Positions 41,521-62,196 of a stretch of DNA of 64,000 bases are shown here, piece by piece. The notes under the pieces are model-generated. The model was not told where the DNA came from. It made no database searches and saw nothing but the letters and a program-made list of their open reading frames with translations. How positions within the stretch are numbered: position 1 is the first letter of the stretch; each line of letters opens with the position of its first letter. The stretch lies in NCBI GenBank assembly GCA_944391955.1, contig CALXVG010000001.1, positions 315,601-379,600 of the forward strand, in the 5' to 3' direction. This DNA is from an uncultured Clostridia bacterium. Its GTDB lineage: Bacteria > Bacillota > Clostridia > TANB77 > CAG-508. The position numbers were made by a program, and so were the translations under genes.

Positions 41521-42120
41521 TTATATTTCACGTCTTCCTTCAAGAGCTTTACTTAGAGTGATTTCATCTGTGTATTCTAAATCGCCACCAACTGGTATTC
41601 CATGTGCTATTCGAGTAACTTTTATGCCTAATGGTTTTATTAATTTAGATAAATAAATTGCTGTTGCTTCTCCTTCTACTCTTGGGTTTGTTGCTATAAT
41701 AATTTCTTTTATATCTGTGTTGTTTATGCGTTCTAGCAATTCTTTAATTTTTATATCTTCTGGTCCTATACCATTCATAGGCGATATTGAACCATGTAAA
41801 ACATGATAAACACCTTTAAACTCATGTGTTTTCTCCATTGCTGCAATGTCTTTTACATCTTCTACAACACATATAGTTGATGAATCACGTTTTGGACTGC
41901 TACATATTGGGCATGGGTCTGTATCTGTTATATTAAAACATTGTGAACAATATTTTAAGTTTTTCTTTGCTTCTACAATTGAATTGATAAATTCATTTAC
42001 ACCTTCTGTATTTTGATTTAACATGTAAAAAGCTAGTCGAGTTGCAGTTTTATGTCCAATGCTTGGCAATCTTTCAAAATTTTCTATTAATCTTTCTATT
42101 GATGGTGAATAGTATGACAC
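41521..42120 (-). CDS. recR: Recombination protein RecR
   Basis: C4 zinc finger 'CSQCFN...CPICS' and a Toprim region; 199 aa. It follows ybaB. Confidence 0.95.
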
Positions 42121-42129
42121 GTTTTCCTC

Positions 42130-42471
42130 CTACATTAAGCCTGGTATATTATATTTACCAAATTGTGCTGATTGTGCTGCATCAACTTTTCTCATTGCAT
42201 CATTTACGCAAGTTATGATTAGGTCTTGTAGCATATCAACATCATCTGGGTCTACTACATCTTTACTAATTTTAATTTCTTTAATTACTTTTCCTCCTGT
42301 AACTTTTACAGTTATGGCTCCTCCTCCAGCTGTTGATTCAAATTCTTGTATTTGTAATTCCTCTTGTGATTTTTCCATATCTGCTTGCATTTTTTTAGCT
42401 TCTTTCATTAATTGATTGATGTTCATTCCACCAAATCCTCCCATTCCTGGGAATCCTCCTCTTTTTGACAT
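42130..42471 (-). CDS. ybaB: Nucleoid-associated protein YbaB/EbfC
   Basis: 113 aa with the typical 'GMGGFGGMNINQLMKEAKKMQ' N-terminus. Confidence 0.9.
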   Translation of the reverse strand: MSKRGGFPGMGGFGGMNINQLMKEAKKMQADMEKSQEELQIQEFESTAGGGAITVKVTGGKVIKEIKISKDVVDPDDVDMLQDLIITCVNDAMRKVDAAQSAQFGKYNIPGLM

Positions 42472-42486
42472 TATCTTTTCCTCCTC

Positions 42487-42906
42487 TTATTCATCTATTA
42501 TATTTATTGGAATATCTAATTCATTTGCAATACTTTCTATTGATGTTTTTTTGGTTTCTTTTTTCCCTTCGTTTTTTTCTAGTATTCTGATTTGCATATT
42601 TGAACCTTGTTCCATTGATACTATTTTTTCAATAAAAGCTTTGTTTTCATGTTCTTCTATTACCTTTTTGGCAAAGTCTGTAACTTTTTTAGGAAATTCT
42701 ATTCCAACAACCATGTCATTTACTAATACACCCTTTGTACTTAGTAAATTTGCATATATAGTCATTTTGCCTGATTGTTTTATTTTGTCTAAGACATTTT
42801 GCCAATAAGGCACATATTTTCCAGTTGATTGTATTTTATCATCTAGTTCTACATCTTGATTTTCAAAATTTACACTTTGTTTTTTGACTTCAGACTTTCC
42901 GCTCTT
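42487..42906 (-). CDS. dnaX: DNA polymerase III tau subunit, C-terminal (domain IV-V) fragment; separated from the N-terminal part by in-frame stops
   Basis: It is in the same reading frame as the 42925-44070 ORF. TAA (42925-42927) and TAG (42907-42909) interrupt the frame. The C-terminal region is tau-like. Confidence 0.6.
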   Translation of the reverse strand, partial: KSGKSEVKKQSVNFENQDVELDDKIQSTGKYVPYWQNVLDKIKQSGKMTIYANLLSTKGVLVNDMVVGIEFPKKVTDFAKKVIEEHENKAFIEKIVSMEQGSNMQIRILEKNEGKKETKKTSIESIANELDIPINIIDE

Positions 42907-42924
42907 CTACCTTTGTCTTCTGTC

Positions 42925-44070
42925 TTACGACATCTTCCCTCTGAGCTCCGGCCTCCGCCTTCTGACCTCCGCCATCCGACCTCTGACCTCCGTCTTTAGA
43001 CATCCGCTAATTATACCTGTTTGAAAAATTATATTTTTCTGTGTTGACATTTTCATATTATTAGCTAATTCTGATAATTCATATATTAGTCTAAGCAATT
43101 CTTCTTTTGATGTTTTCTCTGATAATTGCTTAATAAAATCCATTTCTTCTTTTGTATATAATTCTAAATGAGATGTAACTTTATATACTAATATATCTTT
43201 TACATATTTTATTACTTCCCAAAGGAAATTATCTAAGTCTTTTCCTTGGTTAATCACTATATCCATTGTTTTTATTGCATTTTCAGCATTTTTTTCTATA
43301 ATACATTGCACTAATTCTCTTATGTATGTTAATTTAGGTAATCCTACTAGTTCTCTTATTACATCTTCTGTTATTTCTCTATTTGCATCTTGGCTACATC
43401 TTTCTAAAATACTTATTCCATCTCTTAAAGCACCTTCTGCTAAAATTGCAATCATTTTTAATGCTTCATCTGTTATTTGTATTTTGTCTTCTTTACATAT
43501 AATATTTAGTCTTTTTATTATATCTTCTACTGATATTCTTTTAAAATCAAATCTTTGACAACGTGAAAGTATGGTTGCTGGTAATTTTTGTGGTTCAGTT
43601 GTTGCTAATATAAATTTTACATGTTCTGGTGGCTCTTCTAATGTTTTTAATAATGCATTGAAGGCTCCTGTTGATAACATATGAACCTCATCTATAATAT
43701 ATACTCTATATTTTGCAATTGTTGGTAAAAAGTTTACTTCATCTCTTATTGCTCTCACATCTTCTACACTATTGTTAGATGCTGCATCCATTTCTACAAC
43801 ATCTGTTAAAGAACCATCTAAAATTCCTTTGCAAATTTCACACTCATTACATGGTTCTCCATCTTCATGTGGATGTAAGCAGTTTATAGCTCTTGCCATT
43901 ATTTTTGCTGCAGTTGTTTTTCCTGTTCCTCTTCCACCACTAAATAAATATGCATGTCCTATTCTATCTGCTAATATTTGATTTTTTAATGTTTTTGTAA
44001 TATGTTCTTGCCCAACCATTTCATTAAAAGAAATTGGTCTAAATTTCCTATATAATGCTGTGTAGCCCAT
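42925..44070 (-). CDS. dnaX: DNA polymerase III subunit gamma/tau, N-terminal domains I-III (gamma-length product)
   Basis: 'LFSGGRGTGKTT' Walker A, a Zn-module 'CNECEIC' and SRC/sensor motifs. The ORF ends in a GC-rich repeat segment with an R-rich aberrant tail. Confidence 0.85.
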   Translation of the reverse strand: MGYTALYRKFRPISFNEMVGQEHITKTLKNQILADRIGHAYLFSGGRGTGKTTAAKIMARAINCLHPHEDGEPCNECEICKGILDGSLTDVVEMDAASNNSVEDVRAIRDEVNFLPTIAKYRVYIIDEVHMLSTGAFNALLKTLEEPPEHVKFILATTEPQKLPATILSRCQRFDFKRISVEDIIKRLNIICKEDKIQITDEALKMIAILAEGALRDGISILERCSQDANREITEDVIRELVGLPKLTYIRELVQCIIEKNAENAIKTMDIVINQGKDLDNFLWEVIKYVKDILVYKVTSHLELYTKEEMDFIKQLSEKTSKEELLRLIYELSELANNMKMSTQKNIIFQTGIISGCLKTEVRGRMAEVRRRRPELRGKMS

Positions 44071-44099: not shown

Positions 44100-44218
44100 A
44101 AATTAACCCCTTTATGGAAAGTAATTCACATAAATATTACTATTTATCGCTGCTTCCTTCCAGACCTGACGAGATTCATAGCTCTTTATTGAATTACTCT
44201 CCATAAAGAGGTTAATTC
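44100..44218 (-). ncRNA. ffs: Signal recognition particle RNA (4.5S/scRNA-type, ffs)
   Basis: Minus-strand sequence contains the universal domain-IV motif GUCAGGUCUGGAAGGAAGCAGC. It is enclosed by a ~26-bp terminal helix (44102-44127 pairs with 44191-44216). It is located directly upstream of dnaX, as in Bacillus/Clostridium. Confidence 0.75.
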
Positions 44219-44280: not shown

Positions 44281-45027
44281 CTATATTCTTTTAAATACTG
44301 CCTTAAAATCTGTTTGTTCATATATTTCCACACCATTTTCAACAATATTTCCCTTTGGTAATTCGGTTGTTATTGTAGTTTTAAATTTTATTCCACTTTC
44401 TATTTCTATTATCATATCAAATGTTAATTTGAATTTGATTTCTTCATTTGTTTTTCCTATCTTGTTTAACAATGTACCATCTATTGCTGTTTGTTCATTT
44501 TCTGTGTATTGCATTTCTCCAATGTTGTTTTGTATTACTGAAAATTCTAATATTCCTCCCTGATTTGAAATTTGTAAATTATCAGCTTTTATATTAGTTT
44601 CTGTTCCTCCTGCATATTTTAATTCATCTTTTACAATATTTTGTTCTAAGTAATCGTATAATTCTTCTCCTGTTGATGGTCTGTATATTTCTACACTATT
44701 TGAATTATCTCTATCTGTTATTTGTATATTGTTAATTGTTATTTGTCTTATTTTTGCTTCTTTTTTGTAATTTTCATTTTTTTCTATTGCGATTTTTATG
44801 TCATTATTTTGTAAAATTGAAGCTGTATATCCAGCCTCTCCTTGTATAATATTTGAAGTTTTTGCACTACTAGTAATAATTATTTTTGATATTATAAATG
44901 GTGGTCTACTTTCTCCTTCAACACTATATTTATACATCAAAAAAGCTACTATTATTAGTATAAAAACTATAATTAATATTGTTATATATGCTCCAATAGA
45001 AAACTTTTTTCCTCCAACTTGTATCAT
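44281..45027 (-). CDS. Hypothetical membrane-anchored protein
   Basis: 248 aa with a single N-terminal TM helix and a polar Asn/Ile/Glu-rich ectodomain. No recognisable family. Confidence 0.45.
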   Translation of the reverse strand: MIQVGGKKFSIGAYITILIIVFILIIVAFLMYKYSVEGESRPPFIISKIIITSSAKTSNIIQGEAGYTASILQNNDIKIAIEKNENYKKEAKIRQITINNIQITDRDNSNSVEIYRPSTGEELYDYLEQNIVKDELKYAGGTETNIKADNLQISNQGGILEFSVIQNNIGEMQYTENEQTAIDGTLLNKIGKTNEEIKFKLTFDMIIEIESGIKFKTTITTELPKGNIVENGVEIYEQTDFKAVFKRI

Positions 45028-47125: not shown

Positions 47126-47202
47126 TGGTGTCCTTGGGCGGATTCGAACCGCCGACTTCTTCCTTAGGAGGGAAGCACTCTATCCAGCTGAGTTACAAAG
47201 AC
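47126..47202 (-). tRNA. tRNA-Arg (anticodon CCU)
   Basis: 77-nt cloverleaf GUCUUUGUAACUCAGCUGGAUAGAGUGCUUCCCUCCUAAGGAAG...GGUUCGAAUCCGCCCAAGGACACCA. The anticodon loop CUCCUAA gives anticodon CCU. Confidence 0.9.
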
Positions 47203-47252
47203 ATAAACTTGGTATATTTTCATAATTTTGTGAATATAATATATTAAAAGTG

Positions 47253-47283
47253 TTGACATTCACTAAAAAAAGTATTATAATAA
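47253..47283 (+). promoter_or_regulatory. SigmaA-type promoter for the tRNA-fMet gene (TTGACA-17-TATAAAAT)
   Basis: TTGACA at 47253-47258 and TATAAA at 47276-47281, about 15 nt upstream of the tRNA 5' end. Confidence 0.5.
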
Positions 47284-47297
47284 TTGTCGTGTTCACA

Positions 47298-47374
<77 letters not shown>

Positions 47375-61902: not shown

Positions 61903-62196
61903 ATGAGAATCATGAAAATCGAGCAAACTGTATGGCCTCTGGTTGTACAGTGCAAGCACCACAACACACCGGTTACCTTCGAGGTCAATATGCCCAGCGA
62001 TATGCTGGTGCATCTCGACTATGATGTATCCGAAGTGCCTGGTGCCAATTGGAGGCATGCCGCTGTTGTGGGACGGCACATCTGGACTCACTGCCCCATT
62101 TGTGGGAGAGTCCATGAACTCCCGTTTGATGCGATTCCTGAAATGGTTCGTCGGCTGATTCCGTTGGATCAGTCCAACAAGCCAGTCTTAGGTTGA
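61903..62196 (+). CDS. Hypothetical 97-aa zinc-ribbon-like protein encoded in a compositionally foreign (~55% GC) cassette
   Basis: Strong SD GGGAAGGAGG 7 nt upstream. Codon usage is unlike the rest of the window. It has 'QCKHH' and 'HCPICG' potential metal ligands, and a dedicated terminator follows. Confidence 0.5.
   Translation: MRIMKIEQTVWPLVVQCKHHNTPVTFEVNMPSDMLVHLDYDVSEVPGANWRHAAVVGRHIWTHCPICGRVHELPFDAIPEMVRRLIPLDQSNKPVLG

What the first reader, a model, noticed from the sequence alone, without database searches (positions are those of the whole stretch)
42813..43015. dnaX split at the gamma/tau boundary by in-frame stops within a GC-rich, repeat-containing ~85-bp segment
The N-terminal 381-aa ORF (domains I-III, clamp-loader core) and the C-terminal tau fragment are in the same frame. 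Two stops separate them, TAA at 42925-42927 and TAG at 42907-42909. Between them lies a ~65% GC stretch (42925-43010) with imperfect direct repeats of GGCGGAGGTCAGA(A)GG. All three frames through it contain stops, so no simple single indel restores a tau-length product. The break falls where E. coli generates gamma by programmed frameshifting. Possible explanations are a hypervariable tau linker corrupted by assembly, a foreign insertion, a genuine pseudogene with a gamma-only product, or an unusual recoding element.
Basis: seen in the sequence. Interest (0 to 1): 0.7.

Follow-up and report, generated by a model that had tools for sequence, protein, structure and literature searches.

The report
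Seven-base repeat array splits dnaX
The GC-rich stretch is a decayed 7-base tandem repeat that encodes the flexible linker of the replication protein DnaX, and repeat slippage plus point mutations have cut the gene into a clamp-loader half and a still-conserved C-terminal half in this gut Clostridia species and several relatives.

Summary
dnaX (minus strand) is one 381-aa ORF (44070-42925). In-frame TAA (42927-42925) and TAG (42909-42907) follow, then the C-terminal DnaX_C domain in the same frame. The junction DNA is identical in six independent metagenome assemblies, so it is not an assembly error.

The "16-mer/21-nt repeats" are a degenerate heptanucleotide array (coding-strand unit GNCRGAR / TCGGAGG, about 17 units, 42994-42876). 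Three units encode one heptapeptide (xEVRxQK). Each unit gained or lost shifts the reading frame.

Alleles of this species differ by exactly 14 or 21 nt and are interrupted in four different ways. None of the listed alleles at about 97% identity or more is intact. Two other lineages with expanded arrays are also split: TGA directly followed by ATG, or the C-domain in the +1 frame. Relatives with short AT-rich arrays are intact. The array is therefore a native linker, not an insertion.

The C-domain evolves under the same constraint as the N-part (omega about 0.08). It folds as a self-contained domain.

Best reading: a slippage-prone coding microsatellite has permanently uncoupled a gamma-like clamp-loader ORF from a separately made C-terminal module. 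How the C-module is translated in this allele is unresolved (weak SD at GTG 42813). Low-level recoding is not excluded. No E. coli-type or poly-A-type dnaX recoding signal is present.

The parts
42925..44070 (-). dnaX N-terminal ORF, 381 aa. It covers clamp-loader domains I-III (gamma-like) plus a tail of about 22 codons read from the array, ending in TAA.
   Evidence: ORF list. Pfam DNA_pol3_delta2 3e-44, AAA, DNAX_ATPase_lid and DNA_pol3_gamma3. 79-97% identical to DnaX of related Clostridia MAGs.
42876..42994 (-). Degenerate heptanucleotide tandem array of about 17 units. Units 1-13 are in register GNCRGAR, then there is a 1-nt register slip. This is the DnaX inter-domain linker.
   Evidence: Period-7 self-match of 0.55 exceeds all 2000 shuffles. 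Alleles differ by -21, -14 and -14 nt. The same array family is present in L087-L093 and L335.
42938..42992 (-). Best-preserved, GC-rich core of the array (TRF period 7, 7.9 copies, + strand consensus CCTCCGA = TCGGAGG on the coding strand). It holds three SD-like GGAGG motifs.
   Evidence: TRF. GGAGG at 42952, 42966 and 42987. GC 60-67%.
42925..42927 (-). First in-frame stop (TAA), in degenerate unit 10 (GTCGTAA). It ends the N-ORF.
42907..42909 (-). Second in-frame stop (TAG), in degenerate unit 13 (GTAGAAG).
   Evidence: Shared by alleles L336 and L338, absent from L087.
42890..43003 (-). -1 frame ORF through the array (MSKDGGQRSDGGGQKAEAGAQREDVVRQKTKVEERKV*), ending CGG AAA GTC TGA. In the 388-aa allele P0152/L338 the N-ORF runs in this frame.
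42876..42889 (-). AGTCAAAAAACAAA. In the +1 frame this reads TCA AAA AAC, an A_AAA_AAC heptamer that would lead back into the C-frame. It lies downstream of the N-ORF stop and is not conserved in L087 (TAA in that frame).
   Evidence: Sequence. Considered as a recoding site and judged unsupported.
42487..42906 (-). C-frame open stretch after the TAG: 139 codons plus stop. Residues 1-27 are a disordered post-array linker and residues 31-111 are a folded domain.
   Evidence: Translation. AlphaFold2 pLDDT 92-97 for residues 31-111 and below 50 for 1-27.
42487..42813 (-). Called C-terminal ORF (GTG start, 108 aa), which is the complete DnaX_C domain. GTG 42813 is the only canonical start codon in this frame after the TAG, and its SD is weak.
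   Evidence: ORF list. Pfam DnaX_C 23.7 bits against a cut-off of 26.2. Aligns to the C-termini of full-length DnaX. SD -3.3 kcal/mol against a median of -7.1. Omega 0.02-0.15 within the species and 0.08 against L335.
44110..44205 (-). Small SRP RNA (ffs) immediately upstream. With downstream ybaB (42130-42471) and recR (41521-42120) it gives the conserved tadA-orf-ffs-dnaX-ybaB-recR context.
   Evidence: Rfam RF00169, 65.3 bits. ORFs and Pfam context.

Best explanation
SHOWN. The GC-rich segment is a degenerate heptanucleotide (7-nt) coding microsatellite. It forms the disordered linker between the clamp-loader core (domains I-III) and the C-terminal DnaX_C domain of DnaX/tau in a clade of uncultured, roughly 27%-GC gut Clostridia. 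Because 7 is not a multiple of 3, three units encode one heptapeptide (xEVRxQK), all three frames of an intact array encode the same kind of peptide, and every unit gained or lost moves the downstream domain into another frame. In this species, unit indels (alleles differ by exactly 14 or 21 nt) and point mutations in degenerate units (GTCGTAA gives TAA, GTAGAAG gives TAG) have uncoupled the two halves. All listed alleles at about 97% identity or more are interrupted, in four different configurations. INFERRED. The 381-aa ORF yields a gamma-like clamp-loader subunit ending in a short rare-codon tail. The C-terminal domain remains under purifying selection and is a self-contained fold. It is made as a separate polypeptide, by re-initiation after the N-ORF stop or by weak independent initiation at GTG 42813. 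This would parallel relatives in which the stop abuts an ATG (TGA-ATG) or an SD-preceded ATG opens a 162-169-aa C-ORF. The array is thus a mutational hotspot that repeatedly converts a one-gene tau into a two-gene arrangement. Confidence is about 0.9 for the anatomy and origin and about 0.5 for the separate-polypeptide step; the overall figure given is for the whole statement.
For: Anatomy: 7-nt periodicity. L090 splits cleanly into about 26 TCAGAAG units. Origin in situ: arrays sit at the same site in L087-L093 and L335, with intact read-through in L335, L088 and L093. An AT-rich remnant 'IRSEKLEVRNQ' is found across the clade. Slippage: the ACAGG..TATTGGCA segment is 221 nt in the window, 200 in L336, 207 in L338 and 207 in L087. 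Fixation: the 381-aa product is on 14 contigs. The cluster holds 374/381/388-aa variants, and its only intact member (P0151, 532 aa) is clearly more diverged, with dS about 0.45. Independent split lineages: the L090-92 type (358 aa ending in TGA; 51-member cluster, all 15 listed members 358 aa) and L089 (+1 frame). Expanded arrays are associated with breaks: 6 split against 2 intact clusters, while about 100 clusters without expansion are essentially all intact. The C-domain is retained. Omega against intact L335 is 0.08 (25 syn / 12 nonsyn), compared with 0.085 for the N-part. In the TGA lineage omega is 0.05 (21/6), and three array alleles all keep phase with the C-domain. The fold is confident and starts at the GTG codon. 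Separate initiation is plausible in relatives: TGA-ATG in L091/92 and an ATG in L089, with SD of -5.7 to -5.8 kcal/mol. The varying frame relation between alleles of one species (0 with two stops, or +1) fits independent expression better than one programmed site.
Against: In this allele the only canonical start in the C-frame is GTG 42813. Its SD is weak (-3.3 kcal/mol, weaker than 86% of long-ORF starts, and matched by 23% of random positions). It lies 111 nt downstream of the N-ORF stop, and no significant promoter is nearby. In E. coli the covalent link between the clamp loader and the polymerase-binding domain is the essential feature of tau (Blinkova et al. 1993, 'only tau is essential', from my own knowledge; the title occurs in 8 papers of the library). 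A free domain V therefore has no obvious role. Much of the low dN/dS may have been earned before the break or in donor lineages, because the C-domain shows imported-looking haplotypes (dS 0.2 against 0.06 or less in flanking genes). No expression data exist, and all sequences are metagenomic.
Confidence: 0.5

Rival explanations
1. Tau is still made from this allele by translational recoding inside the array. The frame-tolerant repeat, with SD-like GGAGG motifs and very rare codons (AGG CGG AGG), lets some ribosomes change frame, pass the two stops in the +1 or -1 frame and return to the C-frame (for example at A_AAA_AAC, or at AAA_G before the -1-frame TGA). The zero-frame product is gamma and a minor product is tau.
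For: Both alternative frames are open across both stops. The N-ORF tail uses the rarest codons of the genome: CGG at 0.27 per 1000, CTC at 0.64, CCG at 0.91 and AGG at 2.0. There are three GGAGG motifs within 40 nt. Both 388-aa alleles end at the same CGG AAA GYC TGA with the C-frame at +1, so one +1 shift would give tau there. Two-ORF dnaX genes in which tau requires recoding are known (Antonov 2013, PMC3711429; Atkins 2016, PMC5009743). A retained C-domain makes most functional sense if it is sometimes fused.
Against: This allele needs two compensating shifts. There is no X_XXY_YYZ site in the N-ORF frame. The A_AAA_AAC site is replaced by a stop in that frame in L087. No stimulatory structure was found (z = -1.3) and there is no Rfam match even at E of 1 or less. 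The frame relation differs between alleles of the same species, and the most abundant allele is the one hardest to rescue.
Confidence: 0.25
2. The array is a phase-variable contingency locus. Reversible gain or loss of 7-nt units at the DNA level switches cells between tau-ON and gamma-only states, as in NeuO.
For: It is a coding repeat with a unit that is not a multiple of 3. Alleles of one species differ by whole units. NeuO uses a coding heptanucleotide VNTR in exactly this way (PMC13001214). The TGA lineage shows length variants of 219, 186 and 165 nt.
Against: The array is degenerate (66% matches), which suppresses slippage. The same allele is base-identical in six samples from different studies. 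In the window allele the N and C parts are already in phase and are blocked by two stop codons, so no unit change can turn it ON. No ON allele was found at about 97% identity or more. dnaX is a core replication gene, not a surface or restriction function.
Confidence: 0.08
3. The locus is a recently inactivated pseudogene. The C-terminal part is an untranslated relic that has not yet decayed, and tau function is supplied by another dnaX copy or is dispensable.
For: The ORF is interrupted by two stops. The SD at the only C-frame start is weak. Within-haplotype singleton changes in the C-domain are few and not clearly biased towards synonymous changes.
Against: The break predates the diversification into four allele types. 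The C-domain has no stop or indel in any of at least 10 distinct sequences from at least 60 contigs in a 27%-GC genome. Omega equals that of the N-part. Two further lineages keep the same split with omega of 0.05. The N-part is clearly functional (omega 0-0.05).
Confidence: 0.1
4. It is an assembly or sequencing artefact in a repetitive linker, or an insertion of foreign or mobile GC-rich DNA.
For: GC is 60-67% in a 27%-GC genome, and repeats are error-prone for assemblers.
Against: The junction is identical in six independent assemblies made with different assemblers and cohorts, and the product is on 14 contigs. There is no other copy in the window, and none outside dnaX in the 94 loci held at that point. 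The array is at the same site in diverged relatives, including intact genes, and gene length is conserved.
Confidence: 0.02

Closest known systems
Two-ORF dnaX genes in which tau needs recoding (Antonov et al. 2013, NAR 41:6514, PMC3711429; reviewed in Atkins et al. 2016, PMC5009743)
   Same: dnaX is annotated as two adjacent ORFs. The zero-frame product is the short gamma-like protein. The break is at the gamma/tau boundary.
   Different: Those genes have a conserved poly-A run (7-10 A) at the frame transition and a uniform -1 relation, which implies transcriptional or ribosomal slippage. Here there is no A-run upstream of the stop, the two halves are in the same frame separated by two stops, and the relation varies between alleles. 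The underlying sequence is a 7-nt microsatellite.
E. coli dnaX -1 programmed ribosomal frameshift (A_AAA_AAG with an upstream SD-like element and a downstream stem-loop)
   Same: It acts at the same position in the protein, at the end of domain III. SD-like sequences and an A-rich heptamer are present in the neighbourhood.
   Different: In E. coli the zero frame gives tau and the shift gives gamma. Here the zero frame terminates. There is no slippery heptamer in the N-ORF frame, no significant stem-loop (z = -1.3) and no Rfam match.
NeuO O-acetyltransferase heptanucleotide VNTR (5'-AAGACTC-3')n of E. coli K1 phage CUS-3 (PMC13001214 and references therein)
   Same: It is a coding heptanucleotide repeat. 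Three units make one heptapeptide. Only unit numbers in the right phase give the full-length protein. Unit number varies between strains by strand slippage.
   Different: The NeuO tract is perfect, long (3-53 units), hypermutable and sits at the 5' end, acting as an ON/OFF switch for an accessory gene. The dnaX array is degenerate, stable across samples, lies mid-gene in a core replication gene, and leaves a functional N-terminal product.
Ohno-type frame-invariant oligomeric repeats (Ohno 1984; from my own knowledge, not retrieved here)
   Same: A repeat whose unit length is not divisible by 3 encodes the same periodic peptide in all three frames and tolerates frameshifts internally.
   Different: Ohno proposed this for primordial or newly born coding sequences. 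Here it is a linker inside an old, essential gene, and the consequence is at the array's exit, where downstream phase is lost.
Other routes to gamma: Thermus thermophilus transcriptional slippage on A9 and Caulobacter crescentus derivation of gamma from tau (Atkins 2016, PMC5009743; ClpXP processing from my own knowledge)
   Same: A short DnaX lacking the C-terminal module is produced alongside or instead of tau.
   Different: In those systems tau is encoded intact and gamma is derived from it. Here the intact tau ORF no longer exists.

Membership tests
DnaX (gamma/tau) clamp-loader subunit | N-terminal AAA+ module with the delta'-like fold, ATPase lid and gamma/tau domain III | tested here: met
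   Pfam PF13177 3e-44, PF00004, PF22608 and PF12169 above their cut-offs. 79-97% identity to DnaX of related MAGs. Conserved ffs-dnaX-ybaB-recR synteny.
DnaX (gamma/tau) clamp-loader subunit | C-terminal tau-specific domain (DnaX_C / domain V type) | tested here: inconclusive
   The fragment aligns to the C-termini of full-length DnaX relatives. Pfam DnaX_C scores 23.7 bits, below the 26.2 cut-off. Foldseek matches E. coli tau C14 (2aya, 5fku_E) only at E = 0.16, and DnaA domain I matches better. Homology to relatives' tau C-termini is clear. Equivalence to the E. coli polymerase-binding domain is not shown.
E. coli-type dnaX -1 programmed ribosomal frameshift | Slippery heptamer A_AAA_AAG (X_XXY_YYZ) in the N-ORF reading frame at the gamma/tau boundary | tested here: not met
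   There is none in frame 0. The only heptamer (A_AAA_AAC, 42876-42889) is in the +1 frame, downstream of both stops, and is not conserved in L087.
E. coli-type dnaX -1 programmed ribosomal frameshift | Downstream stimulatory stem-loop, or a match to the curated RNA family | tested here: not met
   RNA fold z = -1.34, with 17 of 200 shuffles folding as well. No Rfam match at gathering score or at E of 1 or less.
Poly-A two-ORF dnaX (transcriptional realignment type) | Run of 7-10 or more A at the frame transition, upstream of the N-ORF stop, with a uniform -1 relation | tested here: not met
   The only A-run is A6 at 42880-42885, 40 nt downstream of the N-ORF stop. The N and C parts are in the same frame here and at +1 in sister alleles.
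Slipped-strand phase-variable (contingency) locus | Intragenic tandem repeat with a unit length not divisible by 3 | tested here: met
   Period-7 array.
Slipped-strand phase-variable (contingency) locus | Unit-number polymorphism among close strains | tested here: met
   Alleles differ by -21, -14 and -14 nt, with about 1% or less flanking divergence.
Slipped-strand phase-variable (contingency) locus | Near-perfect tract giving frequent, reversible ON/OFF switching, with both ON and OFF states in the population | tested here: not met
   The tract has only 66% matches. The allele is identical in six samples. The window allele cannot be switched ON by any unit change, because two stops lie in the correct frame. 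No intact allele is listed at about 97% identity or more. Within-sample heterogeneity was not testable with these tools.
Mobile element or foreign insertion | Additional copies elsewhere, insertion signatures, and absence from orthologous sites of relatives | tested here: not met
   There are no other copies in the window, and none outside dnaX in the 94 loci held at that point. It is present at the orthologous site in diverged relatives, and the linker length is conserved.
Decaying pseudogene | Relaxed selective constraint on the disrupted parts | tested here: not met
   The C-domain has omega of 0.08 against 0.085 for the N-part, and 0.05 in the TGA-split lineage. No disruptions occur within the 108 codons in any allele. 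Caveat: part of the signal may predate the break.

The most novel reading that the evidence does not exclude
These gut Clostridia naturally run replication without a covalently intact tau, in one of two ways. Either the clamp loader is built only from gamma-like DnaX while the polymerase-binding module is delivered as a separate small protein. Or the frame-invariant heptanucleotide array (SD-like GGAGG motifs plus the genome's rarest codons) acts as a new kind of recoding platform, on which ribosomes change frame often enough to make the few tau molecules a cell needs from any allele. Either would be a fourth, previously undescribed route to the gamma/tau pair, and a natural test of whether the tau tether is universally essential.
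Probability: 0.3. Interest if true: 0.8.

Novelty: new variant of a known kind. Interest (0 to 1): 0.6.

Why it matters
How and why bacteria make a short (gamma) and a long (tau) DnaX is an old question in replication biology. It has three known answers: ribosomal frameshifting, transcriptional slippage and proteolysis. Firmicutes are thought to make tau only.

Here several abundant gut Clostridia lineages have lost the continuous tau ORF at the gamma/tau boundary, yet they keep both halves under purifying selection. The cause is a coding heptanucleotide microsatellite that makes the boundary a frameshift hotspot.

If the halves work as separate proteins, the tether between clamp loader and polymerase, which is essential in E. 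coli, is not universally required as a covalent link. If tau is rescued by recoding, the array would be a new type of recoding signal.

There is also a practical point. Annotation pipelines will call these loci pseudogenes, or a truncated dnaX plus a hypothetical protein. The 7-nt signature gives a simple way to recognise them.

Tried and rejected
1. Assembly artefact. Rejected: the junction is identical in six assemblies.
2. Foreign or mobile insertion. Rejected: there are no other copies, and the array occupies the orthologous site in relatives.
3. Stimulatory RNA structure at the window junction. Not significant: z = -1.3. There are no Rfam matches, including at E of 1 or less.
4. Internal promoter for the C-fragment. 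Only a 9/12 match at 42866-42838, and the regional count is not above shuffles.
5. Strong RBS at GTG 42813. Not found: -3.3 kcal/mol.
6. A_AAA_AAC as a conserved -1 site, and GTC-TGA-A-GTC as a 7-nt 'hop' in L338. Neither is conserved in L087.
7. Stop-codon reassignment. Rejected by inspection: neighbouring genes, including dnaX-C itself, end in TAA or TAG, and table-11 ORFs are of normal length.
8. Scan of metagenome and viral collections with a degenerate 5-unit pattern, to test whether the array is specific to dnaX. The pattern proved too permissive. At least 240 unrelated heptanucleotide arrays were returned, none in dnaX. The scan shows only that such arrays are common.
9. C-terminal-fragment protein search for a census of split against intact genes. 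It returned only 22 short proteins because of the word prefilter, so it was useful for examples and not for frequencies.
10. PDB sequence search with the C-fragment. Nothing relevant.
11. GTDB representatives. Mostly too distant and without expanded arrays. Three further split cases (L017, L032, L043) lack arrays and were not pursued, as they may be MAG errors.
Full report
**1. Observation**

dnaX lies on the minus strand. The first ORF (44070-42925, 381 aa) carries the DnaX AAA+ module, lid and domain III and ends in TAA (42927-42925). Six codons later there is an in-frame TAG (42909-42907).

The same frame then stays open for 139 codons to 42487. It contains the C-terminal DnaX_C region. Gene callers annotate this as a 108-aa ORF starting at GTG 42813.

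The window is 26.8% GC, and 42940-42999 is 60-67% GC.

**2. Not an artefact**

The exact 381-aa product is encoded on 14 contigs from unrelated metagenome assemblies. The 300-nt junction is base-identical in six of them, while synonymous SNPs a few dozen bases downstream differ. The protein is also recorded from NCBI, Logan and ENA sources.

**3. What the repeat really is**

The 21-nt period is three copies of a 7-nt unit. Self-similarity peaks only at periods 7, 14, 21 and 28 (0.53-0.57 against about 0.30). The value at period 7 exceeds all 2000 shuffles. TRF independently reports a period-7 array.

Written on the coding strand from 42994, the array reads: GACGGAG GTCAGAG GTCGGAT GGCGGAG GTCAGAA GGCGGAG GCCGGAG CTCAGAG GGAAGAT GTCGTAA GACAGAA GACAAAG GTAGAAG, then a 1-nt register slip and about four more decayed units. 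The two stops are point-mutated units (GTCGTAA, GTAGAAG).

A relative, L090, shows the archetype: about 26 units of TCAGAAG read as the heptads SEVRxQK.

Because 7 is not divisible by 3, three consequences follow. Three units make one heptapeptide. A clean array encodes the same peptide in all frames and has no stops in any frame. Each unit indel shifts the downstream frame by one.

**4. Native linker, not an insertion**

The array occupies the same site, immediately after '...QTGII..C' at the end of domain III, in relatives of 74-93% identity. It is read straight through in intact genes of 522-533 aa (L335, L088, L093).

Most intact relatives retain a short AT-rich remnant (ATTAGAA GTGAGAA ATTAGAA GTTAGAA = 'IRSEKLEVRNQ'). 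Total gene length is conserved at about 520 aa. No copy exists outside dnaX in the window, or in the 94 loci held at the time of the scan.

**5. Allelic series in the window's own species**

The 90% cluster contains products of 381, 374 and 388 aa (two different 388-aa types), and one more diverged intact 532-aa member.

| Allele | Length of ACAGG..TATTGGCA | Difference from window |
|---|---|---|
| Window | 221 nt | - |
| L336 | 200 nt | -21 |
| L338 | 207 nt | -14 |
| L087 | 207 nt | -14 |

All differences are whole units.

- In L338 the N-ORF runs in the window's -1 frame to CGG AAA GTC TGA, and the C-frame still carries TAA and TAG.
- In L087 the unit sequences differ. The C-frame is open through the whole array and contains an ATG.
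- No listed allele at about 97% identity or more is intact.

The break therefore predates the diversification of these alleles. Since then the array has kept evolving by unit slippage.

**6. Independent split lineages**

- The L090/L091/L092 lineage ends the N-ORF right after domain III ('GIIRRKQ' TGA). Its cluster has 51 members, and all 15 listed are 358 aa.
- In L091 and L092 the TGA is followed directly by ATG, which opens a 162-169-aa ORF covering the array and the C-domain. In L090 the ATG is ACG.
- Three array alleles of this lineage (219, 186 and 165 nt from TGA to the C-domain) all stay in phase with the C-domain.
- L089 has the C-domain in the +1 frame, with an SD-preceded ATG.

Among the 120 best DnaX clusters, those with expanded arrays are split in 6 cases and intact in 2. 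About 100 clusters without expansion are essentially all intact. These counts are not phylogenetically independent and represent roughly three events.

**7. Is the C-terminal half still used?**

- Against the intact sister L335, the C-domain shows 25 synonymous and 12 non-synonymous changes (omega about 0.08). The N-part shows 72.5 and 31.5 (omega about 0.085).
- Within the species, two C-domain haplotypes differ by 10 synonymous changes and 1 non-synonymous change.
- In the TGA lineage omega is 0.05, from 21 synonymous and 6 non-synonymous changes.
- No allele has a stop or indel within the 108 codons.
- AlphaFold2 gives a compact alpha/beta domain (residues 31-111 of the 139-aa fragment, pLDDT 92-97). 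It begins at the GTG codon, and the post-array stretch is disordered.
- Foldseek finds KH-like domains: DnaA domain I first, then E. coli tau C14 at E = 0.16.

Caveat: the C-domain is locally much more diverged than its flanks (dS 0.2 against 0.06 or less). That suggests recombination, so part of the constraint signal may have been earned in intact backgrounds.

**8. How is it expressed?**

Known dnaX recoding signals are absent.

- There is no slippery heptamer in the N-ORF frame.
- There is no A-run upstream of the stop.
- There is no significant structure (z = -1.3).
- There is no Rfam match.

The frame relation between the halves varies within one species, and the commonest allele would need two compensating shifts. 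This argues against a single programmed site. It favours separate expression, as the TGA-ATG and SD-ATG arrangements of relatives suggest.

Against this, in the window allele the only canonical start is GTG 42813. Its SD is weak (-3.3 kcal/mol against a median of -7.1, and 23% of random positions do as well). There is also no convincing promoter.

The N-ORF tail is made of the rarest codons in the genome (CGG at 0.27 per 1000, CTC, CCG, AGG). Three SD-like GGAGG motifs lie within 40 nt. Elevated spontaneous frameshifting in the array therefore cannot be excluded.

My estimates are:

| Explanation | Probability |
|---|---|
| Separate C-module, by re-initiation or weak initiation | about 0.5 |
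| Low-level recoding that makes tau | about 0.25 |
| Relic pseudogene | about 0.1 |
| True phase variation | under 0.1 |
| Artefact or insertion | about 0.02 |

**9. Comparison with what is known**

Two-ORF dnaX genes in which tau needs recoding are known, but they rely on poly-A runs with a uniform -1 relation (PMC3711429; PMC5009743).

Coding heptanucleotide VNTRs that are in frame only when the unit number is divisible by 3 are known from NeuO (PMC13001214).

Literature searches combining dnaX with tandem or simple-sequence repeats found only non-variable (C)7 tracts in Neisseria. I found no description of a heptanucleotide array in dnaX, or of naturally split dnaX in Firmicutes.

The finding is therefore a new variant that combines two known kinds, rather than a categorically new one.

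**10. Verdict**

The finding is real and reproducible, and mechanistically more interesting than a simple pseudogene. The anatomy and evolutionary origin are well supported, at about 0.9. The mode of expression of the C-terminal module is inferred and needs experiment. Interest is 0.6.

Noticed in passing
L095-L334 (metagenome and viral contigs): At least 240 unrelated loci carry purine-rich heptanucleotide arrays of the same unit class (TCAGAGG, TCAGAAG and TCGGAGG are the commonest). Contig GC ranges from 27% to 73% and includes viral contigs. None is in dnaX. A crude ORF check gave 46 arrays inside continuous ORFs and 33 flanked by long ORFs in different frames. Frame-invariant 7-nt coding repeats may be a general source of ORF splits.
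   Followed up: partly
window 42643-42795 (-), codons 7-57 of the C-terminal ORF: Two haplotypes differ by 10 synonymous changes and 1 non-synonymous change confined to this stretch (dS about 0.2, against 0.06 or less in flanking genes). The window's haplotype has C/G-ending codons (GTC GAC GGC AAG GAC GAC AAC) where the other haplotype, and at most of these sites the intact sister L335, have T/A. This is a local AT-to-GC enrichment next to the GC-rich array. It could be recombination import or biased conversion, and remains unexplained.
   Followed up: partly
L091:694-895 and L090:2760-2791: Arrays of the TGA-split lineage contain inverted units (TCCGACC, x4 to about 10, encoding PPTSD repeats) after the forward units. 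In L091 this gives a long imperfect hairpin directly after TGA-ATG (MFE -62.6 kcal/mol, z = -3.8, 0 of 200 shuffles as good). In L090 the fold is not significant (z = -0.6).
   Followed up: partly
window 61903-62196 (+): A lone 97-aa ORF of about 55% GC sits in the 27%-GC genome, between a ylxM-like gene and a glycosyltransferase. It has a weak, sub-threshold DUF6274 hit (19 bits) and no Rfam match. It may be a horizontally acquired small gene.
   Followed up: partly
L001:5432-5443 (codons 59-62 of the C-terminal ORF): GCTTTTATTGAA is replaced by GAAAAAAAAAAA (AFIE to EKKK) in one assembly only. This is a single clustered event or an assembly error. It inflates the apparent non-synonymous count for that locus.
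   Followed up: no
window 44281-45027 (-), 248-aa ORF between tadA and ffs: This uncharacterised ORF has a predicted N-terminal hydrophobic segment. It shows a 246/248-aa length polymorphism between strains and has no Pfam hit on record.
   Followed up: no
window 47126-47374: A divergently oriented tRNA pair: tRNA-Arg(CCU) on the minus strand and tRNA-Met(CAU) on the plus strand. tRNA-Arg(CCU) decodes AGG, one of the rare codons enriched in the array.
   Followed up: no
L017, L032, L043 (GTDB MAG representatives): Three further related MAGs have dnaX interrupted by frame changes without an expanded heptanucleotide array (L017 +1, L032 +2, L043 within the AAA+ part). These may be MAG consensus errors or further real splits.
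   Followed up: no
protein cluster of the window's DnaX: The 90% cluster lists an unrelated 46-aa Paraglaciecola hypothetical protein (P0144), apparently a clustering artefact. L094 also has a run of N inside dnaX.
   Followed up: no
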